A stretch of DNA of 64,000 nt from an uncultured Anaerolineales bacterium (GTDB taxonomy: Bacteria; Chloroflexota; Anaerolineae; Anaerolineales; JABWBV01): assembly GCA_964489525.1 (NCBI GenBank), contig CAZAYY010000010.1, positions 68,934 through 132,933 of the forward strand. The letters run 5' to 3'. The translations under genes were made by a program, and so were the position numbers. Each line of letters opens with the position of its first letter. Position 1 is the first letter of the stretch. This document shows positions 48,410-62,072 of this stretch, piece after piece. The notes below the pieces were generated by a model. That model was not told the DNA's origin. It ran no database searches and saw only the letters and a program-made list of their open reading frames with translations.

Positions 48410-50644
48410 TTACGGGCGAGTCAGGGTAGTCACGTCGCCGCCCATGGCTTCGATGGAGTCATACAAAACCTGAGCAACGTACTTGGCGTTGTGGGTGAAA
48501 GCGCCCGGGTCCTTCTGGTAGTACTGGTAGTTGTATGCAGCCTTGAGCAGGTCGGGGGTAAAGGCATTGAAGCTGATTGCCCGGCCGCTATCGTTCAGAT
48601 CGGCAACGCCATCGCCATCCACATCCAGGAAGAAATACGGATAGGCGTGAGAATCATACAGAATGCCGGTGCCTTTCTCGGTGGCGTAGGCCCGCATGGC
48701 GTCGTACAGTAGGGCAGACAGGCTGTCCAGTTCGGCTTTGATGCCTTCGGCTACATCGCCATCACCGTCATAGTCGTTTTCATCGGCGCCGCGATAGGAG
48801 TAGATATCCTGCGGGTTGGTTTCGGTACGGTGACAATCGGCGCACTCATCCACCTCAATTTCGAGGGCATGGACATTGTGGCATTCGGCGCATTTCACCA
48901 CCGGGTGGGGGGATTGACCGACATATTCTTTGCCAGCGAACTGGTAGGCACCCTGGACATCACCACCGAAAATGGTCGCGCCAGCTGCGAAGTAGTGGAT
49001 GTTGGAGAAGCGAATCGAGGCATCAATCGTGCCGGGGTCTTTGCTTCCCAAAGCCTGGTTCACGGTCACAGTCGAGGAACGACCCTGGTGGCAGAGCAAG
49101 CAGGTGTTGGAGCTGTCGGCAACGTTCTTGCCATCGGCATCCTGGGCAAAACTGACGACCTTGCCAGAGGGGAAGGTGACCGAATTAACCGTGTAGAGGG
49201 AGGGCCATTCTTCGCTGTTATGGCAGGTGGTGCACATAAAGCCGTTGCTGAGCGGGGCAGCAACATTGACGCCCTCTTTAATGAACTGAGGCAGGCCAGT
49301 GGCACTGTGGCACTTGGCGCAACGCCCTGGAACCTCACCATCGGCATCCCAATCGCGGAAAGGCATGGTGCTGCCAGCAAAGTGGCCGGGGTCAATGCGG
49401 TGCATGGCGCTCATATCAATCGGCGCAGCCACAGCGCTGTTCAGGTCTTCCATGGAGTCATACATCAATTGAACCAGGTACTTGGCATTGTGGGCAAAGG
49501 CACCGGGATCTTTGACACTGAGCTGGTAGTTGTAGGCAGCCCGCAGCAAGCGCGGTGTCCAGGCAGGGTAACCTACTTTGCGGCCTTCGGCGTTGGTATC
49601 AGCAGCGCCGTCGCCATCGGCATCCTGAAAGAAGTACGGGTAAGAGGAAGAATCATAGACAATACCAGTGCCAGCAACTTCGGAGGCATAGGCACGGATC
49701 AGGACGTAGAGTGCCTCTTGCATGGTTTCGAGTTCAGCAGCGATGCCTTCGGCCACATCGCCATCGCCATCATAGTCGGCCAGGGAGCCAAACATGCGGA
49801 TGGCTTTCAAATCTTCCACGCTGGTAACGCCTTCGTGACAATGGGCGCAGCTTTCAACCTCCACTTCCAGGGTGTGGGGGTTGTGGCAGCTAATGCAGGT
49901 ATCGAAACCTTCCACATGGCGGAACTGAATATCATACATCTTGCCATCATATTCGTAGCCACCCTTGGCCTGGGTGCCATACAGGGTTGCGCCAGCGGGG
50001 TAGTAGTGGATGTTGATAAAGCCCAGGCTGGAGGTGCTGCCATCGGCATTGGTGATTGCGGCGGGCACGGCATCAGGAGCTTCCACGCCGCCAAAGCGCT
50101 CAATGGCAGCGTTCACACTCACGGTAGACGCGCGACCCTGGTGACATTCCATACAGCGGGAAGCATCGCCAAGACCGGTCAATTCAATGCCGGAGGGGAA
50201 GACCACGCTGTCTTTCACAGCGGTGACGGAGTTGTGGCAGGCCACGCAGGTAACGCCCATGGCGGCGGGAGCGTGGGCAGCATCCACTTTTCCGGCCTCA
50301 GAGCCATCCAGGCCGAGGAAATCCAGGTATCCATCAGCAGTGTGGCACTTGGCGCAGGATGTCGGCACTTCGCCGCTGCCATCCCAGTAGCGGAAGGCAG
50401 GTGCAGCCGCATCCGCGTGCCCGGAGGTCATCCAGGCTTCAAAGAAGGGCATATCGGGGCCAGGTTCGGGGGTAATGATCACCTCAACGATTTTTTCTTT
50501 CTCCACCACCTGGGTTTGAACGACGACGCGCGTCACTTCAACCTCGACGGTTTCGATCACTGGTTCGGCCTGGCAGCCCGCAACCAGCAGGGCAAAGCCC
50601 GCTAACGCAAGAAATATGAACATAAATTTTTTGATTTGCTTCAC
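48410..50644 (-). CDS. decahaem c-type cytochrome lipoprotein with internal two-fold duplication
   Basis: GTG start at 50644 with AGGAGG 6 nt upstream. Lipobox FALLVAGC. Ten CxxCH motifs: CAKCH, CVACH, CMECH, CISCH, CAHCH, CAKCH, CTTCH, CLLCH, CAECH, CADCH. Four DxDGDG motifs. Confidence 0.9.
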   Translation of the reverse strand: MKQIKKFMFIFLALAGFALLVAGCQAEPVIETVEVEVTRVVVQTQVVEKEKIVEVIITPEPGPDMPFFEAWMTSGHADAAAPAFRYWDGSGEVPTSCAKCHTADGYLDFLGLDGSEAGKVDAAHAPAAMGVTCVACHNSVTAVKDSVVFPSGIELTGLGDASRCMECHQGRASTVSVNAAIERFGGVEAPDAVPAAITNADGSTSSLGFINIHYYPAGATLYGTQAKGGYEYDGKMYDIQFRHVEGFDTCISCHNPHTLEVEVESCAHCHEGVTSVEDLKAIRMFGSLADYDGDGDVAEGIAAELETMQEALYVLIRAYASEVAGTGIVYDSSSYPYFFQDADGDGAADTNAEGRKVGYPAWTPRLLRAAYNYQLSVKDPGAFAHNAKYLVQLMYDSMEDLNSAVAAPIDMSAMHRIDPGHFAGSTMPFRDWDADGEVPGRCAKCHSATGLPQFIKEGVNVAAPLSNGFMCTTCHNSEEWPSLYTVNSVTFPSGKVVSFAQDADGKNVADSSNTCLLCHQGRSSTVTVNQALGSKDPGTIDASIRFSNIHYFAAGATIFGGDVQGAYQFAGKEYVGQSPHPVVKCAECHNVHALEIEVDECADCHRTETNPQDIYSYRGADENDYDGDGDVAEGIKAELDSLSALLYDAMRAYATEKGTGILYDSHAYPYFFLDVDGDGVADLNDSGRAISFNAFTPDLLKAAYNYQYYQKDPGAFTHNAKYVAQVLYDSIEAMGGDVTTLTRP

Positions 50645-50780
50645 AATCCACCTCCTAAAATGGATAAAGTGTGCAAGGCCTGGTAAGCGTTTTTTGAAAA
50701 ATAACCGGATGGGGTATGTTGGTTTCGGCACGCCTGCCAGGCCGTTTCCGGTTATTCTGTTTTTTGGCTGGTGGACAAAC

Positions 50781-51122
50781 TTATGCTTTCAAAATGTCAA
50801 CCAGGTCTTCAATTTTTCCTACGGGGAGGTTCTCGCTGGACACAACCTGGATTGTGTCTTGCTGCGAGTTCAGCCGCAGGATTTTCAAAGCCGGGTTTGA
50901 AAACATCAGTTCGCTCAGCGAACACAACTGCAAGGCTTCTGGGTCATGGGCATCCGTGATTACGGCGCTGGGGGCGCACTGATGGATACGGGCTGCAGCA
51001 TCAGCATCAAACGGATTCACCAGGCAAACCTCAATTTGCTGAGGAAATTGCTGCAAGCGCCGGGCAATTCCTTCGGCAAACAACGAGTGATTGGATAAGA
51101 TGACAACCGTTTTTACTGACAT
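50781..51122 (-). CDS. small protein with degenerate receiver-like (pseudo-receiver) pattern
   Basis: Start at ATG 51122 (MSVKTVVILSNHSLFAEGIARRL...). Alternating beta/alpha pattern like CheY, but the acidic pocket DD is replaced by SN. The assignment is weak. Confidence 0.45.
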   Translation of the reverse strand: MSVKTVVILSNHSLFAEGIARRLQQFPQQIEVCLVNPFDADAAARIHQCAPSAVITDAHDPEALQLCSLSELMFSNPALKILRLNSQQDTIQVVSSENLPVGKIEDLVDILKA

Positions 51123-51357
51123 ACAATACACCAAAACAAAAGCCACACACAGCTTTCAACAGGATTATATTAATAGAATATGAGCCGTTTGGGTATCCTC
51201 CCTTCGCGCCAAAACGGGTGTCATTAAAGATAGGTGAAAAAAAGCACAACTAACCAATAGTATTAATTGTAAATTCATCGAAAGATTGTAAAAACTTAGC
51301 CTTAAGGGTTAAATCAGGGGGGTTTTGGAGGGATTTTGGCCGGTTTTTCAAAACAGG

Positions 51358-51426: not shown

Positions 51427-52941
51427 ATGTACGGGCTTAATCTGACCATTGTCTACTTTTTTTACGGCCTGGCTTTTTTTACCATGGGCGTGATTGTGCT
51501 GCTGGAGCGCGACCGTGGCTCAGACCAACGCCTGCGGCATGCTTTAGGCCCCCTGGCCGTTTTTGGGTTAGTGCATGGCGCCAATGAGTGGTTGGAGATG
51601 TTCATGAACATTGGAACCCTGCCCACGCTCGGTTCGTGGGGGTTAATCTTGAATGGGGTTCGCCTGGGCACACTGGCATTTTCGTTTATATCTTTAACCG
51701 CCTTTGGCGCATCTTTGCTTTCACCCAACGAAACCGTGCGGCGGTACAGCCTGCTGCTGCCTGTGCTGCAAACTGCGATCTGGGGGTTTGGTGTTCTCAT
51801 CTTAAAGGACCACTATACCGCCCCGCAGCGGATTTGGGATGTGGCCGATGTGTGGAGCCGCTACACCCTGGGCGTTCCCTCGGCGGTAATTGCAGCCATA
51901 GGTTTGGTTGCCCAACAGCGCGCCTTCCGCAAAGCAGGCATGGCTCAGTTTGGGCGCGACAGCCTGTATGCCGCCCTGGCTTTTGCCTGGTATGGCTTGG
52001 TGGGGCAAATATTCGTCCACCCCAGTGCGCTGCCCCCTTCAACCCACATCAACCAGGACCTGTTTTTCTTTTATTTTGGCTTTCCTGTGCAAATTTTCCG
52101 GGCGATAACGGCAGCAATTGCCGCAGCATTTGTGGTTCGCTTTTTACGTGCTTTTGAAGTGGAACGGCAGCGCCAATTAAATGAACTGCAAGAGGCCAGG
52201 GTGGAAGAAGCCAGGCGGCGCGAAATTTTGCGCGGCCAGCTACTGCGCAGGGTAGTGATGGCGCAGGAGGCCGAACGGCAGCGAGTGGCGCGGGAACTGC
52301 ACGACGAAACCGGCCAGGCGCTGACCGCAATCGGCCTGGGGCTGCGCGGCGTAACCAACTCCATGTCCTCCAACCCCGAACAGGCCGCTCAAAAAATGCG
52401 CCAGATTGAATTGATGGCCTCTCGCTCGCTGGATGAACTGCGCCACCTGATTGCCGACCTGCGCCCCTCGCACCTGGACGAATTGGGCCTGCGCGCCACC
52501 CTGCGTTGGTATTTTGGCGAGGTGCAGGCTCGCACAAAACTCCAGGTCCACCTGGAAGTTTTAGGAGATGAAGTTAACCTGCTGCCCGAAGTGCGGATCG
52601 CACTCTATCGCATCATCCAGGAATCCATCACCAACACCATCAAACATGCCCAGGCCAGCGAAATTAACGTCAAACTTGCCTATTTGCCCGCTGCTGTTCA
52701 AGCGACCATTGAAGACAACGGCCAGGGGTTCGACATGCGCAAACTGCAGCAGCCAGGCATTTATTCCTGGGGGCTGTTAGGGATGCAGGAGCGTACCTCA
52801 CTGCTTGGCGGCCAGTTTAACCTGGTTTCCTGGCCAGGCGAAGGAACCCGCATCAGTGTTACACTGCCTTACCAACCGCAGGCATTGGTAGAAAACCTGC
52901 TAGGAGATGAAGACCATGAGCACCAGAATTCTGTTGGTTGA
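51427..52941 (+). CDS. sensor histidine kinase (HisKA_3/NarL-partner type) with polytopic membrane sensor domain
   Basis: About 7 TM helices in the first 240 aa. RVARELHDETGQALTAI (H-box) and HATPase_c (EDNGQGF, GLLGMQER). Confidence 0.88.
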   Translation: MYGLNLTIVYFFYGLAFFTMGVIVLLERDRGSDQRLRHALGPLAVFGLVHGANEWLEMFMNIGTLPTLGSWGLILNGVRLGTLAFSFISLTAFGASLLSPNETVRRYSLLLPVLQTAIWGFGVLILKDHYTAPQRIWDVADVWSRYTLGVPSAVIAAIGLVAQQRAFRKAGMAQFGRDSLYAALAFAWYGLVGQIFVHPSALPPSTHINQDLFFFYFGFPVQIFRAITAAIAAAFVVRFLRAFEVERQRQLNELQEARVEEARRREILRGQLLRRVVMAQEAERQRVARELHDETGQALTAIGLGLRGVTNSMSSNPEQAAQKMRQIELMASRSLDELRHLIADLRPSHLDELGLRATLRWYFGEVQARTKLQVHLEVLGDEVNLLPEVRIALYRIIQESITNTIKHAQASEINVKLAYLPAAVQATIEDNGQGFDMRKLQQPGIYSWGLLGMQERTSLLGGQFNLVSWPGEGTRISVTLPYQPQALVENLLGDEDHEHQNSVG

Positions 52942-53566
52942 TGACCACGCCGTAATCCGCATGGGACTGCGCATGCTGCTGGAGGGGGAAGAAGACATTG
53001 AAATTGTGGGTGAAGCCGACTCCGCAAGGGAAGCGCTGCAATTTGTAAGCAAAACCCAACCCGATGTAATTTTGATGGATGTGAATCTGCCCGATAAATC
53101 TGGCATTGATGTCACCAGGGCGATCAAAGCCCAATGGCCGAAAATTGCCATTGTGGCCCTGACCATTCACGAAGACCAGGAATACTTTTTTAAAATGCTC
53201 CAGGCAGGCGCCAGCGGTTATGTCCCCAAACGGGCTGCGCCGGAAGAACTGCTCACGGCCATTCGCGCCGCTGCCCAGGGGGAGGTCTATTTATACCCAT
53301 CTATGGCCAAGCTGCTGGTGCAAGATTACCTCTCCCCAGATCAACAAGAAAGCAACAAAACCGCCCTGGACGGGCTGACCGACCGGGAGCAGGATGTTCT
53401 GGCACGCCTGGCCGATGGCGAGAGCGTGGGCGAAATTGCCGATGCTCTGTCCATCAGCCCGAAAACGGTTGCCCGCCACCGTGAAAACATCATGCGCAAA
53501 TTGAATTTGCACTCTCGAGGCGAATTGGTGCGCTATGCCATCCGCAAAGGGATTGTTGAGGCGTAA
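52916..53566 (+). CDS. NarL/LuxR-family response regulator
   Basis: ATG 52916 is preferred because AGGAG lies 9 nt upstream (the track start is 52907). RILLVDDHAVIR, DVILMDVNLPD, and the LuxR HTH LTDREQDVLARLADGESVGEIADALSISPKTVARH. Confidence 0.92.
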   Translation: MSTRILLVDDHAVIRMGLRMLLEGEEDIEIVGEADSAREALQFVSKTQPDVILMDVNLPDKSGIDVTRAIKAQWPKIAIVALTIHEDQEYFFKMLQAGASGYVPKRAAPEELLTAIRAAAQGEVYLYPSMAKLLVQDYLSPDQQESNKTALDGLTDREQDVLARLADGESVGEIADALSISPKTVARHRENIMRKLNLHSRGELVRYAIRKGIVEA

Positions 53567-53635
53567 GCGGCAGCAGGTGTGTAGTTTGTCGTGGGGGAAT
53601 TTGAGGGAAACCACAAAGGCCATGATTAAAAACAA

Positions 53636-53668
53636 ATCCTAAAGGTTTTCGAAACCTTTAGGATTTTT
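53636..53668 (+). terminator. intrinsic terminator after the response regulator gene
   Basis: ATCCTAAAGGT / ACCTTTAGGAT stem, 7-nt loop, TTTTT. Confidence 0.65.
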
Positions 53669-53705
53669 CTTAGGGTTTTCCCCGGCATGGGGTAAACAAC
53701 CCATT

Positions 53706-53745
53706 TGTGAATATGTTCACAAACCCACTTGTGACTACTTTCACA
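53706..53745. promoter_or_regulatory. two tandem perfect CRP/FNR-family-type sites TGTGA-N6-TCACA
   Basis: Site 1 at 53706-53721 (TGTGAATATGTTCACA) and site 2 at 53730-53745 (TGTGACTACTTTCACA), 24 bp centre to centre. Each sits in a 24-bp direct repeat unit CCCA(T/C)TTGTGA...TTCACAA(A/G). Confidence 0.5.
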
Positions 53746-53966
53746 AGCCCATTTTGGCTTGCCAACCATGGGTAACAAACCCCTTTTTAATGTCCCACTA
53801 ATGGGACTTTTTTGATTAAAAAGATTGGGTAAACACCGAATTTACCAAACCCTCCTTCCCTCGTACACTCAAGCTAGAACATTCGAAGAACGGCTGTGAA
53901 GGCAAAAGCCAATTCACCGTTATTTGAAAGCAAAAGTGCATGGACTGATCCATGCGGAGGTGTGAA

Positions 53967-54083
53967 ATGTCTGAAATCTTAATCCCAATTGTGCTGCTGT
54001 TCTTCTTCATCCTGCGGATTGTCATCCCCGCTGGATTGTTGCTGGCAATTGGTACCTGGCTGCAGAAGCGCTTTGCTTACTAA
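53967..54083 (+). CDS. 38-aa hydrophobic peptide (single TM helix)
   Basis: Below the ORF-track size cut-off. GGAGG 7 nt upstream of the ATG. MSEILIPIVLLFFFILRIVIPAGLLLAIGTWLQKRFAY. First gene of the plus-strand cytochrome operon. Confidence 0.45.
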   Translation: MSEILIPIVLLFFFILRIVIPAGLLLAIGTWLQKRFAY

Positions 54084-54110
54084 AGCCAAACCAAACAAAA
54101 GGAGGCCGGT

Positions 54111-54467
54111 ATGAACGAGTTGTTTGAAATTATCTCTCTGCTGATGGGATTTATGCTGCGGTTAGGGCTGCCCATTGTGGTGACGGTTCTGGGCATCATG
54201 CTGTTGCAACGGCTGGATTCCCGCTGGCAGCTCGAAGCAGAAAAGAACACCACCCTGGCAAACCTCAAACCGGGCGACTACCTGAACAAAGTTCACTGCT
54301 GGGATATTCGCGAGTGCTCCCCTGAAACCCGCTCGCAGTGTTCTGCCTATCAACAACCCGATGTTCCCTGCTGGGAAAGCCACCGAGTCGGTGGGAAATT
54401 ACAAGAATCTTGCCGCAGCTGCGCAATTCGCAAACGCGTGGTTGCCATTTCAACTGTCAATCTATAA
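54111..54467 (+). CDS. membrane-anchored Cys-rich protein (six Cys, two C-W motifs; two-CW-like domain)
   Basis: AGGAGG RBS. N-terminal TM helix, then VHCWDIRECSPETRSQCSAYQQPDVPCWESHRVGGKLQESCRSC. Confidence 0.65.
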   Translation: MNELFEIISLLMGFMLRLGLPIVVTVLGIMLLQRLDSRWQLEAEKNTTLANLKPGDYLNKVHCWDIRECSPETRSQCSAYQQPDVPCWESHRVGGKLQESCRSCAIRKRVVAISTVNL

Positions 54468-54482
54468 CACAGGAGGCATTCC

Positions 54483-55385
54483 ATGATTGCTCGTTTTATT
54501 CGCATGATTTTCGTTGGGCTTTGTTTTGCCCTGCCCTTTGGCCTGGTGACTGCGGTTGCCCAGGCTCAAACCCTTCAACCCCCCGCAGATGGCGAATGCC
54601 AGGACTGCCATGAAATCACCCAGGTCAAGTGGGCCAACAGCGCACACGGACAGGCCCTCAGCAGCCCCACCTTCCAGGCCACCTGGCAGGAAAAAGGCTC
54701 CCCGGCCGAATGTCTGGCCTGCCACACCACAGGCTTTGACCCGGAAACCGGCACCTACGCTTACGAAGGCGTTTCTTGCTCCACCTGCCACTCCTCCGAC
54801 ACGGGCAACCACCCCGATGAAATTATGCCCACGGATGTATCCTCCAGAATGTGCGGTGAATGCCACCTGGACACTTACGCCGAATGGGAAACCAGCACTC
54901 ACGGGGCAGAAAACCAAACCTGTGCCACCTGCCACGATGTTCACTCCACATCCATCAAAGCAGCCGAAGCACAGGAATTATGCCAATCGTGCCACCTCGA
55001 TGAAGTGCACTACTACCAATACACCTCGCACAGCGAAGAGGGACTGCTCTGCACCGACTGCCATGTCAATGTCTCTGGTTCAATCATGGGCGAAGGACAC
55101 GCACAGCGTAAGCACACCTTTACCGTTGACCTGAACACCTGCAACGAATGCCACAGCCAGGGGCTGCACTACCCAAGCGGGCAGTTGATGGCGGAAGCGG
55201 GCATTGGCCAGGCACCCCAACAATCTGGGCTGGCCATGCCCATTGACGGGCACACCGTGGTTGCAGAAACCACTCCGTCCAGCCCCTTCAGCTTTGCCAT
55301 CCTGGCGGCGCTGGTAGGGATGGCCGTTGGCATGGTGATCTCTCCACTGTTGGAACGCTGGTATCGCCGCAACACATCCCTCTAA
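54483..55385 (+). CDS. octahaem c-type cytochrome with signal peptide and C-terminal TM anchor
   Basis: Eight CxxCH motifs: CQDCH, CLACH, CSTCH, CGECH, CATCH, CQSCH, CTDCH, CNECH. C-terminal FSFAILAALVGMAVGMVISPLL. Confidence 0.9.
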   Translation: MIARFIRMIFVGLCFALPFGLVTAVAQAQTLQPPADGECQDCHEITQVKWANSAHGQALSSPTFQATWQEKGSPAECLACHTTGFDPETGTYAYEGVSCSTCHSSDTGNHPDEIMPTDVSSRMCGECHLDTYAEWETSTHGAENQTCATCHDVHSTSIKAAEAQELCQSCHLDEVHYYQYTSHSEEGLLCTDCHVNVSGSIMGEGHAQRKHTFTVDLNTCNECHSQGLHYPSGQLMAEAGIGQAPQQSGLAMPIDGHTVVAETTPSSPFSFAILAALVGMAVGMVISPLLERWYRRNTSL

Positions 55386-55421
55386 CCCAACCCGACAAGA
55401 AAATTCCTGGAGGTAAATCTC

Positions 55422-56222
55422 ATGGAAGAGACCAAAACCCAAAGCACCAAGCCCCGCTTGCGCATCAACCGGCGTGAATTCGTCAAAATCGCCGCACTGG
55501 GCACAGCCGCCGCTCTGGCACCAGCCCTGGCAAAAAACACCCTTGCTTCGCCTTCTTATGCACACGCCCCACACGGCAGCCCCTACCGCTGGGCTATGGT
55601 CATTGACCAGGGCAAATGCGTGGGATGCAACTACTGCGTGAAAGCCTGCAACGCCAACAACGACACCAACCCCGACATTAAGTGGATCAAGATGTACGAA
55701 ACTCAGGAACTGCGCGGCGGAAAAACCTACCTGCCGGTGGCCTGCCAACACTGCGCCAACCCGCCTTGCGTGGGGGCCTGCCCGGTTCAAGCCACGTACC
55801 AACGAGCCGACGGAATTGTGATGATGGATTACGACCGCTGCATCGGCTGCCGCTACTGTGAAGTAGCCTGCCCATACGGCGCACGCTCGTTCAACTGGGA
55901 AAGCTTCAAAGACGAAAACCCTTACGTACCCGCCTACGGCACACCAAATGTACCTCGCCGAGAACGCGGCGTTATTGAAAAATGCACCTTCTGCTACTCC
56001 AAAATTGACCGGGGCCTCGAACGCGGCCTGGTTCCTGGCGTGGACGCAGCAGCGACCCCGGCCTGTGTGCTGGCTTGCCCGCATGGCGCCCGCTTGTTTG
56101 GCGACTTGAACGACCCCGATTCCCCCGTCAGCAAAGCACTTGCCGAAAACCACTATTTCCGCCTGCAGTCGGATTCTGGCCTTGAACCCAGGGTTTATTT
56201 CTTGCCTGCTCGCAAATCATAG
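55422..56222 (+). CDS. Tat-exported 4x[4Fe-4S] ferredoxin subunit (NrfC/PsrB/DmsB-like)
   Basis: Twin-arginine signal RINRREFVKIAALGTAAALA. Cys clusters CVGCNYCVKAC, CQHCANPPCVGACP, CIGCRYCEVACP, CTFC...CVLACP. Confidence 0.9.
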   Translation: MEETKTQSTKPRLRINRREFVKIAALGTAAALAPALAKNTLASPSYAHAPHGSPYRWAMVIDQGKCVGCNYCVKACNANNDTNPDIKWIKMYETQELRGGKTYLPVACQHCANPPCVGACPVQATYQRADGIVMMDYDRCIGCRYCEVACPYGARSFNWESFKDENPYVPAYGTPNVPRRERGVIEKCTFCYSKIDRGLERGLVPGVDAAATPACVLACPHGARLFGDLNDPDSPVSKALAENHYFRLQSDSGLEPRVYFLPARKS

Positions 56223-56232
56223 GAGATTGAAG

Positions 56233-57492
56233 ATGGTCGCAGCATTACGCAACTTCCAATTTACACGATTTCATGCCTGGGTACTTTTCCTGGGGGCTGT
56301 CATTCTTTCCGGTCTGGTAGCCGCAATTATGGTCTTTGCCCAGGGTTTGTGGATCACCAACCTGAACGACCTGGTGCCCTGGGGCTTATGGATTGGCATT
56401 GACCTTTCTTCCATCGCACTCAGTGCAGGCGCTTTCCTGCTTTCCGCTGTGGTGTACCTGGTTGGCATCAAAAAGTTTGAACCCATCGCTCGCACGGCTG
56501 TGTTTGTGGGCCTGATTGGTTACTCCATGGCGCTGATGACGCTGATTATGGACATTGGCCGCCCCGACCGCTTCTGGCATGCCCTGGCCTTCTGGAACTA
56601 CCACTCACCGCTCTGGGAAGTGTCCATGTGTATCGCCATGTACTTCACCGTGCTGCTGCTGGAAGCCATGCCCATCATCGCTCGCTGGGAGTGGCTGGCA
56701 AAAACCTTCCCCGTGCTGGCCAAAAAGATGACCCACATTCACCACTACGCTCCGGTTCTCGCCATTGCTGGCCTGGCCCTTTCGGTAATGCACCAATCAT
56801 CCCTCGGCGCAATGTACGGGATTATGAAAGCCCGCCCAATTTGGTACCGCCCCAGCATGGCAGGCATGTTCATCCTCTCGGCGATGATTGCCGGGCCCGC
56901 CCTGACCCTGCTGATTTCCATGATCTCCGCCCGCCTGACCGACCGGGCCAAAGTGAACGATAAACTGGTGGAACAAGTTAGCTACTATATCGGTTGGGGA
57001 CTGGTCGCCATGCTTTATGTCCGCTTTTGGGACACCCTGGCCATGCACTACACCTACCAACCCGGGCGCACCGAAGGTCTGGAAATGCTGACCAAAGGTC
57101 AGCTGGCCTTCAACTTCTGGGGGCTGGAAATTTTCCTCGGCATCTTGCTGCCACTGGTGGTGCTGCTTACGGGCAAACTGCGCCGGATTCCGGTGGTGCG
57201 AATGATTGCCCTGGCCTCTGTGGTAATTGGGCTGATCGCCTTCCGCTGGGATACCAACATGGTCGGGCAGTTGGTGGTTTTTACCAATCTTTCGCAAACC
57301 TATGTGACCGGTTTTACCAGCTACACCCCGAATTTGATTGAAATTTTAGTTGGTGGCGCAGTGGTTGGCTATGGCATGCTCGCCATTTCACTCGGCATTC
57401 GCTACCTGCGGCTGGTGGACCACACCGACGTTCACGGCGAACATGAAGAAGCCCATGTTGAGCAGATGGTGCTCAGCCCTGCTGCCGATTGA
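56233..57492 (+). CDS. NrfD/PsrC-family polytopic membrane quinol-interacting subunit
   Basis: Start at ATG 56233 (AGGAG upstream), 11 nt after the Fe-S gene stop. About 10 TM helices. Gene order follows the NrfC-like gene. Confidence 0.85.
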   Translation: MVAALRNFQFTRFHAWVLFLGAVILSGLVAAIMVFAQGLWITNLNDLVPWGLWIGIDLSSIALSAGAFLLSAVVYLVGIKKFEPIARTAVFVGLIGYSMALMTLIMDIGRPDRFWHALAFWNYHSPLWEVSMCIAMYFTVLLLEAMPIIARWEWLAKTFPVLAKKMTHIHHYAPVLAIAGLALSVMHQSSLGAMYGIMKARPIWYRPSMAGMFILSAMIAGPALTLLISMISARLTDRAKVNDKLVEQVSYYIGWGLVAMLYVRFWDTLAMHYTYQPGRTEGLEMLTKGQLAFNFWGLEIFLGILLPLVVLLTGKLRRIPVVRMIALASVVIGLIAFRWDTNMVGQLVVFTNLSQTYVTGFTSYTPNLIEILVGGAVVGYGMLAISLGIRYLRLVDHTDVHGEHEEAHVEQMVLSPAAD

Positions 57493-57520: not shown

Positions 57521-57556
57521 TCCAAACCTGCCGTGCAAAATTGCACGGCAGGTTTG
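57521..57556. terminator. 16-bp perfect hairpin between convergent operons
   Basis: CCAAACCTGCCGTGCA-AAAT-TGCACGGCAGGTTTGG. Only a weak T-run follows. Confidence 0.5.
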
Positions 57557-57758
57557 GTTATAAGGGAATCGGTAAAAATGGTTTGTAACTGCGTTTTTTT
57601 TTACCGGAAATATTTGCGGATTTGTGCGAAGGGTGGTTTGGAACCTTAATCCTGCTGGTACGGGCGCAAGGTCAGGCTGGCAACTCACAGCACACTCGCC
57701 CCTCCACCCCTCACCGCCCAAACGATTAAGCCCGATTTGTCGTGCGCCAATTAAACGA

Positions 57759-57833: not shown

Positions 57834-59561
57834 TTATTTTTCTGGCGCGCCTGCTTGAATCCAGGCCTGCAATGCTTCCAACTCATCGCCTAACATTTTG
57901 CCAAAATGGGGGGTAGATTGGGTTTGGCGAGTGAAAACCGGGCTGGCAGCAGGGTCACCCGGAACCAGGCCAGGCCCACTGCTTCCGCCTGCCAATGCGC
58001 CCGTATAAGTACTCAGGTCCAGGCTGCCTTCCGGATCTATCCCGCTATGACAGAAGATGCAGCGTCCATCAAAAACCGCCTTAAAAGTATCATCATAGGT
58101 TTGAGGGGCGCCAGGAATCAGGAAGGGGCTGGTGTTGAGCAAAATGTAGAGCTGTTGGTCCAAAATGGCAGTAAGCTCAGGCGCATTCAGGCCAATATAT
58201 TCCCAATCAGCGCCATGGCAGGCTTCATTACCACAGAAAGAGGTATCAATGGGTGGTTTGCCTTCCAACTTGGTGTAGAGAATTTTCGGGTCGCTGGGTG
58301 TGTGGCAGGCGGCACACGAGGAGTCAATCGCCTTACCATGCAGAGCGATCCAACTGCTGTGCGTATGGGATGCGGGCTGCTGTCCGGTGACAATTTCAAT
58401 ATTGCTGGTGAGTGCGCCGGGTTTGGAAATCACAGGTATGGCATGGCAAAGGTTGCACTCTAACCGGATGGCTTCCTGGGTAGAGGTGAGGTGTTTGCCA
58501 TCATGGCAGCGGAAGCAGCCAGGATCATCTTTGTGCCCCAGGTTGTTCGGGTGGGTGTCCCAATCAATAAGCTGGTCAGGAAAAACAATTTGGTTGTAGA
58601 TATCCTTCAAGGTAAAGACTGCCTGGTCAATTTCAGCCTGGCGGCTGGCATAAACTTCTGGGTAGTTCGCCTGGTAGTAAGCCGGCAGAGAATCAATCGC
58701 ATCGATGGCATCTGCGGCTTGTTCGTAAGATTTGTCAATGGCTTCTACGGCCAGTTGGTAAATGAAGGGCAAATCGGTGGAAATGAGCTGCTTTTTGATT
58801 GCCTCTGAAACCGCCTCTTCAGGTGTTGGCATGGAATGGGTTACTCGATTGTGGCAGGTAATGCAGTCCATCCGCTGCAGCGTGGCCCCGGCAACGTCGT
58901 TTGGTGTCAGCCCAGAAGCCAGGTCATAATATTCTTTGATGGTGCCATCCGGGTTGACAACGCGCACATAAGGAATCTCTTGCTCGCGGTCATCGGTAGC
59001 AAGGTAATAAACCTCACTTTCGATATGCCAGTGAATCCCAAGGCCCAGGCCTTCGCGCTGGCTTCCACCGCCTGTTTTCAGCACCAGGAAAGTGCTTTGG
59101 GGGGTGTTGGCTTCGTTATTCTGGTAGCTTCGCAGTTCCCGCAGGCTGTCATCGGAAAATTTTTCAGGGAAGTGACAGGTTTCGCAAGTCTCACGGGCCG
59201 GGCGCATGTTTTTGGCGTGGATTGGGTATTCGTAATCCTGTGTCACCATCACAACGACATGGCGCAGGTCGCCTGCTTTACGTGAAATACGGGTAGCGAT
59301 GAAGTCGCGTCCAATGTGACATTCAACACATTGAACCCGGGCATGCGGAGAACGCAGGTAAGCACTATACTCTGGCGGCATGGTATGGCAGGAAGTTCCA
59401 CAAAATTCGGTGGAATTGGTGTAATCCCAAACATAGGCACCCGCAGTCAGCATGGTCAGCGTGAGCACACCCAAAACTGCAAAGGGCATCAGGCGCAGGG
59501 CGACCGGTGTGCCCGGTGGGGGCAGAAAGAACCGTTTAATTGCAGTCCAAATAACCTTCAT
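57834..59561 (-). CDS. membrane-anchored multihaem cytochrome: NapC/NirT-like N-terminus plus further haem domains and a C-terminal PSCyt-like monohaem domain
   Basis: ATG 59561 with AGGAGG 5 nt upstream. N-terminal TM helix. Seven CxxCH motifs plus CGTSCH (CX3CH) and CGNEACH (CX4CH). C-terminal CIFCHSG...LDLSTY...GGSSGPGLVPGDP...WIQAGAPE. Confidence 0.88.
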   Translation of the reverse strand: MKVIWTAIKRFFLPPPGTPVALRLMPFAVLGVLTLTMLTAGAYVWDYTNSTEFCGTSCHTMPPEYSAYLRSPHARVQCVECHIGRDFIATRISRKAGDLRHVVVMVTQDYEYPIHAKNMRPARETCETCHFPEKFSDDSLRELRSYQNNEANTPQSTFLVLKTGGGSQREGLGLGIHWHIESEVYYLATDDREQEIPYVRVVNPDGTIKEYYDLASGLTPNDVAGATLQRMDCITCHNRVTHSMPTPEEAVSEAIKKQLISTDLPFIYQLAVEAIDKSYEQAADAIDAIDSLPAYYQANYPEVYASRQAEIDQAVFTLKDIYNQIVFPDQLIDWDTHPNNLGHKDDPGCFRCHDGKHLTSTQEAIRLECNLCHAIPVISKPGALTSNIEIVTGQQPASHTHSSWIALHGKAIDSSCAACHTPSDPKILYTKLEGKPPIDTSFCGNEACHGADWEYIGLNAPELTAILDQQLYILLNTSPFLIPGAPQTYDDTFKAVFDGRCIFCHSGIDPEGSLDLSTYTGALAGGSSGPGLVPGDPAASPVFTRQTQSTPHFGKMLGDELEALQAWIQAGAPEK

Positions 59562-59687
59562 CACAACCTCCTTGTAAGAACACAGTTTGTGAAAAAAATC
59601 GCAACCTGTCCCAGGAACGCTGAGAGCCTGCCTGCGGCAGACTCTCAGCCCTCCCCGATTAAATTTTCAACAGCCTTTGAACGACTG

Positions 59688-60851
59688 CTATTCTTCCGGT
59701 GCGCCGTTGGCAATCCAGATTCGGATGGCTGCGGCCTCGCCAGGGGTCAGGCGCCCGGCATGCGAATCCATACGGGTTGGCCAAATGACCACAAGGCTGA
59801 CACCCGGCCCGCCGGGCACAATCGCCGGACCCGAATCGCCACCTTTAAAGGCGCCTGCCAGGGTTTCCAGGTCGAGGTTGGCCTCACCATTACGAGGGTT
59901 ATGGCAGTCGGCACAGCGGTTAGTAAACACGGCGCCAATGCCGTTTGCCCAGGTATCCCCATACAACCGGGCACTCTCGGGCACAGGCGCACTGGGCGGG
60001 CGCGGGGTTGGGGTCAGGGGAACAAATACTTCAACCTTTTCCAGTTCTGGCACGGCCGCTACGGCGGTTTGTTCGCTGGCCACGAACCAGACAATCCCAA
60101 CAATCCACACCAGAGCAACCAGACCATACCCAATCGCAAAGCGAGTTTTGCGCTGTTGAACGCGGGTGGGGTCATCTTTGAGCGGGGGCGGGGCGTGCAG
60201 CGCCAATGGGTGTTCGTGTTCCATTTCCTTGCGGGAAAGATACCCCGTATACATGCTTTTGTTAAACATCTTCACGAACACGCCGTAAAAATGCCAAAGC
60301 ACAATGGAAAGTGCAGCCAGGACGGCCTCACCACCGTGGGCAGCCTTGGCTGCCGGGATAAGCTCGCCGGGGAAAAGTTCTGCCGCGGTGATGGGATTCC
60401 ACATGAAAAAGCCGGTAACCACCATCACAATGGTGCCCCAAATCAAAGCCCAGTATTCCATCTTCTCTTCAAAGGTATAGAATCCTTGCTTAGGCGGGGT
60501 TTTGGCAAAGCCAAAGTTATATTTCAACGTTTCCCAACCATTTTTTACATCATCCAAACCCGGCAACATCGTCAACGGGCCGCGCTTTACATACCAGTGG
60601 TAAATGGCATAACCGATATGCCACAAGGTAACGACGAAAAGCACAACCGCCGAAATTCGGTGGATAATGCGGGTAATTTCGATCCCTCCCAGGAGGTTGA
60701 TAATAAACACCGATATCCCAGCATCCAGGTATTTTTGCGGCAAACCTGTGATAACGAGGATAATGAACGAAATCCCGTTGGTCCAATGCTCAATCCGGCG
60801 AATGAGCGGGAAGCGCAAATAGCGTTCTGGAATTTTTTCGCTCGTGCTCAT
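59688..60851 (-). CDS. b-type cytochrome (Ni_hydr_CYTB/FdnI-like 4-TM) fused to a C-terminal PSCyt-like c-type haem domain
   Basis: ATG 60851 with GGAGGA upstream; the previous stop is at 60853. RRIEHWTNGISFIILVITG, HRISAVVLF, a further TM helix, then CADCHNPRNGEANLDLETL..GGDSGPAIVPG...WIANGAPEE. Confidence 0.8.
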   Translation of the reverse strand: MSTSEKIPERYLRFPLIRRIEHWTNGISFIILVITGLPQKYLDAGISVFIINLLGGIEITRIIHRISAVVLFVVTLWHIGYAIYHWYVKRGPLTMLPGLDDVKNGWETLKYNFGFAKTPPKQGFYTFEEKMEYWALIWGTIVMVVTGFFMWNPITAAELFPGELIPAAKAAHGGEAVLAALSIVLWHFYGVFVKMFNKSMYTGYLSRKEMEHEHPLALHAPPPLKDDPTRVQQRKTRFAIGYGLVALVWIVGIVWFVASEQTAVAAVPELEKVEVFVPLTPTPRPPSAPVPESARLYGDTWANGIGAVFTNRCADCHNPRNGEANLDLETLAGAFKGGDSGPAIVPGGPGVSLVVIWPTRMDSHAGRLTPGEAAAIRIWIANGAPEE

Positions 60852-60852
60852 G

Positions 60853-62040: not shown

Positions 62041-62072
62041 AACACGCTCCTTAGGTTCGTAGTGGGGTTCCA

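What the first reader, a model, noticed from the sequence alone, without database searches (positions are those of the whole stretch)
53967..57492. Plus-strand operon: 38-aa TM peptide, two-CW-like Cys-rich membrane protein, octahaem cytochrome, NrfC-like and NrfD-like subunits
Five consecutive plus-strand ORFs each have a GGAGG-type RBS, and the intergenic gaps are short (11-37 nt). The NrfCD-type pair is preceded by a C-terminally TM-anchored octahaem protein instead of the usual NrfA/NrfB or PsrA. That in turn is preceded by a 118-aa protein with a TM anchor and the motif CW-x4-C-x7-C-x9-CW-x15-C-x2-C. Six Cys with two C-W pairs suggest an Fe-S or metal site or a redox sensor. This accessory pair (tiny TM peptide plus Cys-rich protein) is not part of any NrfCD-type complex I know.
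Basis: partly seen in the sequence, partly recalled or inferred. Interest (0 to 1): 0.65.

Follow-up and report, generated by a model that had tools for sequence, protein, structure and literature searches.

The report
Cytochrome–NrfCD operon with two novel membrane partners
A Chloroflexota respiratory operon (eight-haem cytochrome, iron-sulfur protein, quinone-binding membrane protein) always travels with two small, uncharacterised single-pass membrane proteins, one carrying a conserved six-cysteine domain, and usually with its own two-component regulator; the core complex is a known type, the two partners are not.

Summary
Five plus-strand genes (53967-57492) sit between flanking hairpins, with 10-36 nt gaps and GGAG(G) ribosome-binding sites. 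The core is a known kind: an octahaem cytochrome c with a C-terminal anchor, a Tat-exported protein with four [4Fe-4S] clusters (NrfC-like) and an NrfD-like membrane protein. It passes no curated equivalog cutoff except DsrO.

Both small ORFs are real and conserved. The 118-aa protein has 310 representative homologues. CW-x4-C-x7-C-x9-CW-x12/13-C-x2-C is invariant or nearly so, as is a TM motif (R17, P21, T25, D36, W39). The 38-aa peptide is a Cys-less paralogue of that helix.

In loci with complete flanks the peptide is present in 48/48 and the 118-aa protein in 45/48. The 118-aa gene almost always lies between the cytochrome-NrfCD block and a HisKA_3/NarL-type two-component system.

The family has no Pfam hit, no PDB sequence match and no Foldseek match. 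Its consensus scores below threshold on NCBIfam "two-CW domain" (17 bits; cutoff 35). Charge distribution puts the Cys domain in the cytoplasm, away from the outward-facing haems and Fe-S clusters.

Most likely these are dedicated membrane partners of the complex, with the Cys domain acting as a metal or redox handle. This is a new variant of a known kind, and its function is untested.

The parts
51427..52941 (+). Histidine kinase: a multi-TM N-terminal region with no Pfam match, then HisKA_3 and HATPase_c domains. It is a conserved neighbour of the module.
   Evidence: Pfam PF07730 and PF02518. Homologue present in 59/80 loci, and in 41/44 loci with >=3 kb on both sides.
52907..53566 (+). NarL/LuxR-type response regulator (receiver + GerE HTH). 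It overlaps the kinase gene by 35 nt.
   Evidence: Pfam PF00072 and PF00196. Homologue present in 60/80 loci, and in 39/44 loci with >=3 kb on both sides.
53634..53666 (.). Perfect 15-bp-stem inverted repeat just downstream of the response-regulator gene. It is terminator-like.
   Evidence: sequence.
53706..53745 (.). Two tandem perfect palindromes TGTGA-N6-TCACA (53706-53721 and 53730-53745), lying within a direct repeat ACCCAyTTGTGA-N6-TCACAA. They are a candidate operator upstream of the operon.
   Evidence: These are the only two matches in 64 kb, against 0.05 expected. Near-matches lie about 95 nt upstream of the small-peptide gene in six related loci.
53967..54083 (+). p38: a 38-aa single-pass membrane peptide with an LRxxxP helix motif. 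It is a Cys-less paralogue of p118's TM helix. Predicted topology is N-out/C-in.
   Evidence: GGAGG ribosome-binding site. The family is found in 75/80 loci and in 48/48 loci with complete flanks. The p118-family HMM hits these peptides at E 1e-4 to 1e-10. Flanking K/R counts are 0.02 on the N side and 2.30 on the C side.
54111..54467 (+). p118: an N-terminal TM helix (about residues 4-33; conserved R17, P21, T25), a juxtamembrane RLDxRW motif, a variable linker and a six-Cys domain (C63 W64 C69 C77 C87 W88 C101 C104, encoded at 54297-54422).
   Evidence: 310 representative homologues at E<=1e-3. Invariant or near-invariant columns are listed. AlphaFold2 mean pLDDT is 88.8 for the whole protein and 82.7 for the domain alone. 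There is no Pfam hit, no PDB sequence match and no Foldseek match.
54483..55385 (+). Octahaem c-type cytochrome with a signal-like N-terminus and a C-terminal TM anchor that carries an invariant GxxxG.
   Evidence: Eight CxxCH motifs, all conserved in 25 homologues. Pfam Cytochrome_C7 and C554. 208 relatives at E<=1e-5.
55422..56222 (+). NrfC-type subunit with four [4Fe-4S] clusters and a twin-arginine signal (RREFVK).
   Evidence: NCBIfam DsrO 237 bits (cutoff 200); QrcC, TtrB, ArrB and NrfC all below their cutoffs. Best solved relative is the ACIII ActB C-terminal domain, 6f0k_B, E 2e-36.
56233..57492 (+). NrfD/PsrC-family integral membrane subunit, the predicted quinone-interacting component. 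It has no cofactor-binding motif.
   Evidence: Pfam PF03916 116.5 bits. Best NCBIfam hit is QrcD at 226 bits, below the 570 cutoff. About ten hydrophobic spans.
57522..57557 (+). Perfect 16-bp hairpin followed by UUAU, 29 nt after the nrfD stop. It is the likely end of the operon.
   Evidence: dG -37.7 kcal/mol, z -7.7, 0 of 200 shuffles as stable.

Best explanation
The operon encodes an outward-facing menaquinone:multihaem-cytochrome oxidoreductase module. Electrons pass between the quinone site of the NrfD-like subunit, the four [4Fe-4S] clusters of the Tat-exported NrfC-like subunit and the eight haems of the membrane-anchored cytochrome. From there they pass to or from the other multihaem cytochromes of the surrounding island.

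p38 and p118 are dedicated single-pass membrane partners of this module. They share one ancestral TM helix (LRxxxP, with a conserved Arg, Pro and Thr). That helix probably docks in the membrane against NrfD and/or the GxxxG-bearing anchor of the cytochrome.

p118 additionally carries a Cys6 domain of about 50 aa on a variable-length tether. Charge distribution places this domain in the cytoplasm, so it is off the electron path. It most likely binds a metal (Zn or an Fe-S cluster). It would then act as a regulatory or sensory (or assembly) handle, which may communicate with the HisKA_3 kinase / NarL-type regulator that almost always lies next to it.

Shown here: gene structure, family conservation, Cys pattern, gene-neighbourhood linkage and charge distribution. 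Inferred: complex membership, docking, cytoplasmic location, metal binding, signalling and direction of electron flow.
For: Core module:
- Cytochrome, nrfC and nrfD are colinear in 72/80 related loci.

p118 family:
- 310 representative homologues, 131 of them at E<=1e-10.
- C69, C87, W88, C101 and P21 are invariant. C63, W64, C77, C104, R17, T25, D36 and W39 are at least 90% conserved.
- Cys spacing is 5-7-9-13/14-2 in 56 of 66 locus homologues.

Linkage to the complex:
- p118 lies directly upstream of the cytochrome gene in 34 loci and directly downstream of nrfD in 26. Gaps are mostly 3-130 nt.
- p118 is present in 45/48 complete loci. The small peptide is present in 48/48.
- Distant homologues of only 27-35% identity (Caldilineales and others) still sit next to cytochrome-FeS-NrfD genes.
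- This includes loci with no two-component system within 3-8 kb: L086/L087 and L058, L066 and L070.

Paralogy of p38 and the p118 helix.

Topology: N-tail K/R 0.05 against C-flank 3.83 in the p118 family.

Link to the two-component system:
- p118 always lies on the side of the block nearest the two-component system.
- In five loci, and in L091, it is co-oriented with HK-RR.

Precedents for small TM partners of NrfD-type cytochrome complexes are NhcD (PMC8076601) and TMH1 (PMC13047784).
Against: - There is no physical evidence of any kind: no co-purification, no multimer model, no transcript or proteome data.
- In arrangement C (5 loci), L091 and L086/L087, p118 is not in the same transcription unit as the complex genes. 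In arrangement B the small peptide is divergently transcribed. Both are unusual for stoichiometric subunits.
- A cytoplasmic domain has no obvious partner in a complex whose cofactors all face outward.
- Topology rests only on the positive-inside rule.
- One homologue (L084/L085) has neither NrfD nor a two-component system nearby.
- Metal binding is inferred only from conserved Cys.
- Some variants keep only four of the six Cys.
Confidence: 0.45

Rival explanations
1. p118 (and perhaps p38) is not a subunit of the respiratory complex. It is an accessory membrane protein of the adjacent HisKA_3 kinase, making a three-component system. Its TM helix would bind the kinase's multi-TM sensor region. 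Its cytoplasmic Cys6 domain would sense redox or metal status (for example quinone-pool or iron status) and modulate kinase output. The cytochrome-nrfCD operon would be the regulon. Known small-protein modulators of kinases such as MgrB/PhoQ are a functional analogy drawn from my own knowledge, not tested here.
For: - p118 always lies between the two-component system and the complex genes.
- In five loci it is co-oriented with HK-RR and convergent with nrfD, with RR-p118 gaps of 135-202 nt.
- In L091 the order is HK>RR>p121>, and four unrelated genes separate it from NrfD<FeS<MHC<.
- The kinase has no recognisable sensor domain, only a multi-TM region.
- The variable-length tether and predicted cytoplasmic location fit a signalling domain.
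Against: - p118 is tightly coupled (3-130 nt) to the cytochrome or nrfD genes in 60 of 66 loci. It is never closer than about 119 nt to the RR gene.
- p118 persists next to cytochrome-FeS-NrfD genes where no two-component system lies within 3-8 kb: L058, L066, L070 and L086/L087.
- No fusion of the Cys domain to a kinase or any other signalling domain was seen among the homologues inspected.
Confidence: 0.25
2. p38 and p118 are purely structural or assembly factors. They could stabilise the NrfD/cytochrome-anchor membrane bundle. Alternatively, the Cys6 domain could hand over or proofread Fe-S clusters for the Tat-exported NrfC before export. No signalling role would be involved.
For: - Same-operon position with strong ribosome-binding sites in most loci.
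- NrfC needs four cytoplasmically inserted clusters and Tat export.
- Small single-TM subunits exist in related complexes (PMC8076601, PMC13047784).
Against: - This does not explain the constant position next to the two-component system, or the loci where p118 is transcribed with it.
- It does not explain the variable-length, low-complexity tether.
- There is no similarity to known Tat proofreading chaperones or Fe-S carriers in Pfam or NCBIfam.
Confidence: 0.2
3. The topology is the reverse of the prediction. The Cys-rich domain would then lie outside the membrane as a disulfide-rich or metal-binding module. There it would contact the cytochrome or NrfC, or an extracellular substrate.
For: - All redox partners are on the outer face.
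- Six conserved Cys could form three disulfides.
- The conserved Arg17 inside the hydrophobic stretch makes the exact TM limits uncertain.
Against: - The N-tail is about 4 residues long, acidic and lacks K/R (0.05 per protein). The C-side flank carries 3.8 K/R.
- This is the opposite of a signal anchor, and it holds across 66 family members and 46 small peptides.
Confidence: 0.08
4. The two small ORFs are chance ORFs or non-functional remnants.
For: Both are short, neither has a Pfam annotation, and p38 has only 38 codons.
Against: - Protein-level conservation across hundreds of clusters, with invariant Cys and Trp.
- The peptide is present in 48/48 complete loci, with conservative substitutions.
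- Both have GGAGG ribosome-binding sites.
- The AlphaFold model is confident.
Confidence: 0.02

Closest known systems
Nine-haem cytochrome complex NhcABCD, and the larger HmcABCDEF, of Desulfovibrio (PMC8076601)
   Same: The architecture matches: a multihaem cytochrome c, a subunit with four [4Fe-4S] clusters, an NrfD-like subunit and a small extra membrane protein (NhcD). These complexes interact with quinone and their cofactors face outward.
   Different: - HmcB and HmcC NCBIfam scores are far below cutoff (85 against 420; 153 against 550).
- The cytochrome here has 8 haems and its own C-terminal TM anchor.
- There are two paralogous single-pass partners, and one carries a Cys6 domain.
- The host lineage is Chloroflexota.
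- A cognate two-component system is linked to the module.
QrcABCD menaquinone reductase of sulfate reducers (PMC6303296, PMC13059093)
   Same: The NrfD-like subunit scores best on the QrcD model and the FeS subunit matches QrcC. Qrc also couples cytochrome c to menaquinone on the outer face.
   Different: - Scores are below cutoff: QrcD 226 against 570, QrcC 167 against 400.
- There is no QrcB (molybdopterin-like) gene.
- The cytochrome is octahaem, not hexahaem.
- Extra p38 and p118 genes are present.
Alternative complex III (ActABCDEF; PDB 6f0k, 6btm, 6lod, 8k9e)
   Same: The closest solved relative of the FeS subunit is the C-terminal domain of ActB (E 2e-36). ACIII also combines a multihaem subunit, NrfD-like subunits and small single-TM subunits, and it occurs in Chloroflexota.
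   Different: - There is no molybdopterin-like ActB domain.
- There is one NrfD-like subunit, not two.
- There is no ActE.
- The NrfD-like protein finds no PDB chain at E<=1e-3.
TMH1-DsrOh-DsrPh-tetrahaem locus of cable bacteria (PMC13047784)
   Same: This is a predicted module of a small single-TM protein, a DsrO-like FeS protein, an NrfD-family protein and a multihaem cytochrome. It has been proposed to move electrons from quinol to periplasmic cytochromes. The FeS subunit here also passes the DsrO model.
   Different: - That cytochrome is tetrahaem, not octahaem.
- The NrfD here is QrcD-like, with a DsrP score of 68 against a cutoff of 350.
- TMH1 is reported as unique to cable bacteria, with no Cys-rich domain described.
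- Sequence relatedness to p38 could not be tested.
NCBIfam NF045718 'two-CW domain' (a curated domain model; no literature found)
   Same: Both are Cys-rich domains with two CW dipeptides. The p118-family consensus aligns across positions 1-76 of the 80-position model.
   Different: - The score is 17.3 bits against a cutoff of 35, and the window protein itself gives no hit.
- The domain here is about 30 residues shorter.
- The function and genomic context of true two-CW proteins are unknown to me.

Membership tests
NCBIfam NF045718 two-CW domain | Score at or above the curated cutoff (35 bits) on the 80-position model | tested here: not met
   The window p118 gives no hit at E<=1. Ten of 68 homologues hit, with a best E of 0.057. 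The family consensus domain scores 17.3 bits, E 0.0048, covering model positions 1-76.
NCBIfam NF045718 two-CW domain | Two CW dipeptides within a conserved Cys-rich domain | tested here: met
   C63-W64 and C87-W88 are invariant or at least 90% conserved, with four further conserved Cys. This is a resemblance only, since the model threshold is not reached.
NrfD/PsrC family (Pfam PF03916) | Score above the Pfam gathering threshold; polytopic membrane protein without cofactor motifs | tested here: met
   116.5 bits against 25.8. About ten hydrophobic spans and a single Cys.
NrfABCD nitrite reductase | NrfA catalytic pentahaem with a CxxCK haem, NrfB pentahaem, and NrfC/NrfD equivalogs | tested here: not met
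   The cytochrome has eight CxxCH and no CxxCK. Scores are NrfB 15.8 against 166.6, NrfC 129.5 against 377.6 and NrfD 33.5 against 347.6.
QrcABCD | QrcC and QrcD equivalog scores, plus a QrcB molybdopterin-like subunit and the hexahaem QrcA | tested here: not met
   QrcC scores 167 against 400 and QrcD 226 against 570. The operon has only five ORFs, and none is QrcB-like.
DsrMKJOP | DsrO and DsrP equivalogs together with DsrM (cytochrome b), DsrK (CCG Fe-S protein) and DsrJ (trihaem) | tested here: not met
   DsrO passes at 237 against 200. DsrP scores 68 against 350. No DsrM, DsrK or DsrJ-type gene is in the operon.
Hmc/Nhc complexes | HmcB and HmcC equivalog scores | tested here: not met
   HmcB scores 85 against 420 and HmcC 153 against 550.
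Hmc/Nhc complexes | Architecture of multihaem cytochrome + 4x[4Fe-4S] subunit + NrfD-like subunit + small membrane protein | tested here: met
   for the window. The Nhc composition is taken from PMC8076601. Homology of p38 to NhcD could not be tested.
Alternative complex III | ActB with a molybdopterin-like domain, two NrfD-like subunits (ActC, ActF), pentahaem ActA and monohaem ActE | tested here: not met
   The 266-aa FeS protein aligns only to residues 796-1022 of ActB 6f0k_B. There is one NrfD-like gene, and the cytochrome is octahaem.
Tat-exported Fe-S subunit | Twin-arginine signal peptide | tested here: inconclusive
   An RREFVK motif lies at residues 17-22, followed by a hydrophobic stretch. 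The Pfam TAT_signal score is 17.0 bits, below the 22.7 threshold.
Stoichiometric subunit of the complex (p38, p118) | Physical association with NrfD, NrfC or the cytochrome | not testable with these tools
   Only gene-neighbourhood evidence is available. No multimer prediction or proteomic data were available.

The most novel reading that the evidence does not exclude
p118 would define a new class of membrane-tethered, cytoplasmic Cys6 (Fe-S or thiol) redox sensor. It would sit physically on an NrfD-type quinone-interacting complex and report the complex's or the menaquinone pool's state to a sensor-less HisKA_3 kinase. The Cys-less paralogue p38 would act as a competing or partner helix. That would be a 'respiratory complex + adaptor + kinase' flux-sensing circuit for multihaem (possibly extracellular) electron transfer in Chloroflexota.
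Probability: 0.25. Interest if true: 0.72.

Novelty: new variant of a known kind. Interest (0 to 1): 0.55.

Why it matters
Filamentous Chloroflexota (Ardenticatenaceae, Promineifilaceae, Caldilineales and relatives) are abundant in sediments and activated sludge and carry many multihaem cytochromes. How they connect the quinone pool to those cytochromes is not known.

This module is a strong candidate for that link. Relatives of its cytochrome were found in at least 488 species-level genomes. It comes with its own regulator and two unannotated membrane proteins.

If p118 is a subunit or a sensor, it gives a concrete handle on how an NrfD-type complex is assembled or regulated. It is a 118-aa protein with an invariant Cys6 motif and a confident structure model. 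It would also give the orphan 'two-CW'-like Cys domains a biological context.

If p118 is only a stabilising helix, the result is a modest annotation gain.

Tried and rejected
Searches that found little or nothing:
- The word-indexed protein search with p118 found only the protein itself. With the family profile it found only 26 unannotated proteins. The exhaustive HMMER search was needed to find the family.
I scanned with the cytochrome alignment instead and searched the loci locally with HMMs.
- Pfam and NCBIfam gave no family for p38 or p118.
- PDB sequence searches with the full-length profile and the domain profile gave nothing significant.
- Foldseek against the PDB, with the full model and with the domain model, gave 0 hits.
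- A literature search for 'two-CW domain' found 0 papers. Searches on Anaerolineae or Ardenticatena with NrfD found no description of this operon.

Ideas considered and dropped:
- That loci lacking p118 compensate with a longer GAF-containing kinase. L091 has both.
- That the N-terminal extensions in some homologues are fused domains. They look like over-called starts.
- That the operon is a DsrMKJOP or Nrf system. Only the DsrO model passes.
- That the TGTGA-N6-TCACA sites are general in related loci. They are conserved only in one subgroup.

Loci L064, L076 and L069 could not be extended far enough to see whether p118 follows the HK-RR pair there.

Full report
**1. The observation**

The five plus-strand ORFs are present as described.
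- p38, 53967-54083: 38 aa, one hydrophobic span, no Cys.
- p118, 54111-54467.
- A 300-aa cytochrome, 54483-55385. It has eight CxxCH motifs, no CxxCK, a signal-like N-terminus and a C-terminal TM anchor followed by ERWYRR.
- A 266-aa Fe-S protein, 55422-56222. It has an RREFVK twin-arginine motif and 16 Cys in four groups.
- A 419-aa NrfD-family protein, 56233-57492.

Stop-to-start gaps are 27, 15, 36 and 10 nt. Four ribosome-binding sites are GGAGG and the nrfD site is GGAGA. In p118 the spacing after the second CW is x12, not x15.

All five products, with exactly these limits, are on record as called genes of an NCBI contig of 148,771 bp, without names.

A 400-nt intergenic region separates the upstream response-regulator gene from p38. 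A perfect 16-bp hairpin follows nrfD at 57522-57557 (dG -37.7, z -7.7). Terminator-like hits inside the operon are weak and near the chance rate. Co-transcription is therefore likely but not shown.

**2. The core genes**

- The NrfD-like protein passes Pfam PF03916 (116.5 bits). It scores best on NCBIfam QrcD (226 bits; cutoff 570), then HmcC, HybB and DsrP, all below their cutoffs.
- The Fe-S protein passes only the DsrO model (237 bits; cutoff 200). QrcC, TtrB, ArrB and NrfC are all below cutoff.
- The closest solved relative of the Fe-S protein is the C-terminal Fe-S domain of ACIII ActB (6f0k_B, 2e-36), followed by ArrB and PsrB.
- The NrfD-like protein finds no PDB chain at 1e-3.
- The cytochrome has only generic multihaem Pfam hits and weak DmsE/GSU2203-type similarity.
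- All eight haem motifs, and a G279-x3-G283/P288 motif in the cytochrome's anchor helix, are invariant in 25 homologues.

The core is therefore a cytochrome c + NrfC + NrfD quinone-interacting module. This is an established architectural class that includes Nhc, Hmc, Qrc, ACIII and Mcc (PMC8076601) and the predicted TMH1-DsrOhPh-tetrahaem module (PMC13047784). The module here belongs to none of the curated equivalog families.

**3. The 118-aa protein is a real, conserved and unannotated family**

- An exhaustive HMMER search of 1.84 billion representatives gave 310 hits at E<=1e-3 and 131 at E<=1e-10. Almost all are 105-150 aa long.
- In a 68-sequence alignment, P21, C69, C87, W88 and C101 are invariant. 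R17, T25, D36, W39, C63, W64, C77, A79 and C104 are at least 90% conserved.
- Among 66 homologues in related genomic loci, 60 carry the full motif. Fifty-six of them have Cys spacing 5-7-9-13/14-2.
- Four short variants keep only the last four Cys.
- The linker between the helix and the Cys domain varies from about 10 to about 70 residues.
- The N-terminal extensions seen in some database entries look like over-called starts. No fused domains were seen.
- No Pfam family matches the window protein or its 68 homologues.
The window protein does not hit it. Ten of 68 homologues hit weakly (best E 0.057). The family consensus reaches only 17.3 bits (E 0.005), across model positions 1-76. This is a plausible remote relationship, not membership.
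- AlphaFold2 gives a confident model (pLDDT 88.8). It shows a long helix over residues 2-50 and then a compact domain of short helices. In that domain the conserved Cys sit at or just before the starts of the short helices. The domain modelled alone has pLDDT 82.7.
- Foldseek finds nothing in the PDB for either model.
- Profile searches of PDB sequences find nothing significant.

**4. The 38-aa peptide is a paralogue of p118's helix**

- The p118-family HMM hits short ORFs of 35-55 aa in the related loci at E 1e-4 to 1e-10.
- p38 alone hits 14 such ORFs and one p118 homologue.
- An HMM built from these peptides finds one in 75 of 80 loci, and in 48 of 48 loci with complete flanks.
- The peptides share the motif ...(L/A)R(F/I/L)xxP....
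- Some also share the juxtamembrane RW(D/E)EEA motif of p118.
- One locus (L086) holds three paralogues side by side: a 41-aa peptide, a 69-aa Cys-less version and the 118-aa form.

**5. Gene neighbourhood**

A scan of one genome per species with the cytochrome alignment found relatives in at least 488 genomes. The 80 best loci were kept. Nearly all carry Chloroflexota titles (Ardenticatenaceae, Promineifilaceae, Leptofilum, Anaerolineales and others); two carry Zixiibacteriota and Sulfomarinibacteraceae titles.

Cytochrome, nrfC and nrfD are colinear in 72 of the 80 loci. Three arrangements recur.
- A, the window type, 34 loci: HK> RR> small> p118> cytochrome> nrfC> nrfD>.
- B, 26 loci: small< cytochrome> nrfC> nrfD> p118> RR< HK<.
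- C, 5 loci: the same as B, but with p118 on the other strand, co-oriented with RR and HK.

p118 is present in 45 of 48 complete loci. One further locus has a frameshifted copy. In two others the locus ends before the place where p118 might lie.

p118 always sits on the side of the block nearest the two-component system. Gaps to the cytochrome gene or nrfD are mostly 3-130 nt. Gaps to the RR gene are never below about 119 nt.

Distant homologues behave as follows.
- L082 (Caldilineales) and L083 keep all three partners together.
- L088 has nrfD> p116>.
- L086/L087 have peptide-cytochrome-FeS-NrfD divergent from a 69-aa paralogue plus p118, with no two-component system within 8 kb.
- L058, L066 and L070 have p118 after nrfD with no response-regulator gene detected downstream of it.
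- L091 has HK> RR> p121>, and four unrelated genes separate it from NrfD< FeS< cytochrome<.
- L084/L085 is an orphan copy with neither partner nearby.

Linkage to the complex genes is therefore somewhat more constant than linkage to the regulator, but both are strong.

**6. Topology**

In the p118 family the short N-tail has 0.05 K/R and 0.64 D/E per protein. The 15 residues after the helix carry 3.83 K/R. The small peptides show 0.02 against 2.30.

By the positive-inside rule both proteins are N-out/C-in, which puts the Cys6 domain in the cytoplasm.

The cytochrome (signal peptide, with its C-terminal anchor followed by basic residues) and the twin-arginine Fe-S protein face outward. The Cys domain is therefore across the membrane from every redox cofactor of the module. 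It is unlikely to be an electron-transfer centre of this chain. This is an inference.

**7. Mechanism**

The best-supported reading is as follows.
- The core is a menaquinone:multihaem-cytochrome oxidoreductase. It feeds, or is fed by, the surrounding conserved cytochrome island.
- The island comprises a 10-haem protein, a NapC/NirT-like protein, a cytochrome b561 fusion and 9- and 8-haem proteins. These are syntenic in 16-28 of 80 loci within the 6-kb flanks.
- p38 and p118 are dedicated single-pass partners. They dock through a shared helix that has a conserved intramembrane Arg.
- The tethered cytoplasmic Cys6 domain of p118 is a metal or redox handle with a regulatory, sensory or assembly role. 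It is possibly read by the adjacent kinase, which lacks any recognisable sensor domain.

Three rivals remain open: a pure kinase accessory, a pure structural or assembly factor, and an inverted topology. I put 0.45 on the combined subunit-plus-handle model. I put about 0.9 on the narrower statement that p38 and p118 are functional partners of this module.

**8. Comparison and novelty**

In architecture the module is closest to NhcABCD and to the cable-bacterial TMH1-DsrOhPh-tetrahaem locus. In sequence it is closest to Qrc/ACIII-type subunits. It fails the membership tests for Nrf, Qrc, Hmc, Dsr and ACIII.

A cytochrome in place of NrfA or PsrA is a known architecture, and a tiny TM partner has precedents.

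What I could not find described anywhere in Pfam, NCBIfam, the PDB or the searchable literature is this combination:
- the conserved Cys6 protein family;
- its Cys-less paralogue;
- the fixed three-way association with an octahaem-NrfCD module and a HisKA_3/NarL two-component system.

I class it as a new variant of a known kind and rate interest at 0.55.

**9. Upstream region**

Two perfect TGTGA-N6-TCACA palindromes lie between the regulator gene and p38, at 53706-53721 and 53730-53745. They are the only two in the window (0.05 expected).

One-mismatch versions lie about 95 nt upstream of the small-peptide gene in six loci of the same arrangement subgroup.

They could be an operator for a CRP/FNR-type factor or for the adjacent GerE-type regulator. 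This was not resolved.

Noticed in passing
window 53700-53750: There is a tandem direct repeat ACCCAyTTGTGA-N6-TCACAA. It contains two perfect TGTGA-N6-TCACA palindromes, the only two in 64 kb (0.05 expected). They lie between the response-regulator gene and p38. One-mismatch versions lie about 95 nt upstream of the small-peptide gene in L040, L041, L043, L052, L057 and L063. An exact site lies 33 nt upstream of the orphan p118 homologue in L084/L085.
   Followed up: partly
window 53634-53666 and 53792-53817: A perfect 15-bp-stem inverted repeat follows the response-regulator stop. A second short GC hairpin with a T-run lies between the palindromes and p38. These could be a terminator and an attenuator or leader structure. 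I did not analyse them further.
   Followed up: no
window 48410-50731 (-), 57834-63353 (-): A conserved multihaem-cytochrome island flanks the operon. It comprises a 773-aa protein with 10 CxxCH, a 576-aa NapC/NirT-like protein (7 CxxCH plus 2 longer motifs, and a PSCyt1 domain), a 415-aa cytochrome b561 + PSCyt1 fusion, a 406-aa protein with 9 haem motifs and a 426-aa protein with 8. Homologues occur in 16-28 of 80 related loci within the 6-kb flanks.
   Followed up: partly
window 51427-52941 (+): The histidine kinase has an N-terminal multi-TM region of about 230 aa with no Pfam match. The motif HGxxEW..MF in this region is also seen in the kinase homologues of four other loci that I inspected (L045, L064, L069, L076). 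Some homologues are about 200 aa longer, and one of these (L091) has a GAF domain in that position. What the kinase senses is unknown.
   Followed up: partly
loci L058, L066, L070, L071: Short p118 variants lack the first CW-x4-C pair and keep only four Cys (C-x9-CW-x13-C-x2-C). In L058, L066 and L070 no response-regulator gene is detected downstream of p118. This suggests that the last four Cys form the core site.
   Followed up: partly
loci L045 (3898-4050, -) and L086 (7758-7967, +): Cys-less proteins of 50-69 aa keep the TM helix and the RW(D/E)EEA juxtamembrane motif. They occupy the position normally held by p118, or lie in tandem with it. L047 carries a frameshifted p118.
   Followed up: partly
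window 54483-55385 (residues 279-288 of the cytochrome): An invariant G279-x3-G283 and P288 lie in the C-terminal anchor helix of the octahaem cytochrome across 25 homologues. This is a helix-packing motif that could receive the p38/p118 helices.
   Followed up: no
window 50781-51146 (-): A 121-aa ORF lies next to the 10-haem cytochrome gene. It has homologues in five related loci in the same relative position. I did not run it through any family search.
   Followed up: no
loci L032 and L078: Two of the 80 loci carry record titles outside Chloroflexota (Zixiibacteriota, Sulfomarinibacteraceae). This could reflect mis-binning or lateral transfer of the module.
   Followed up: no
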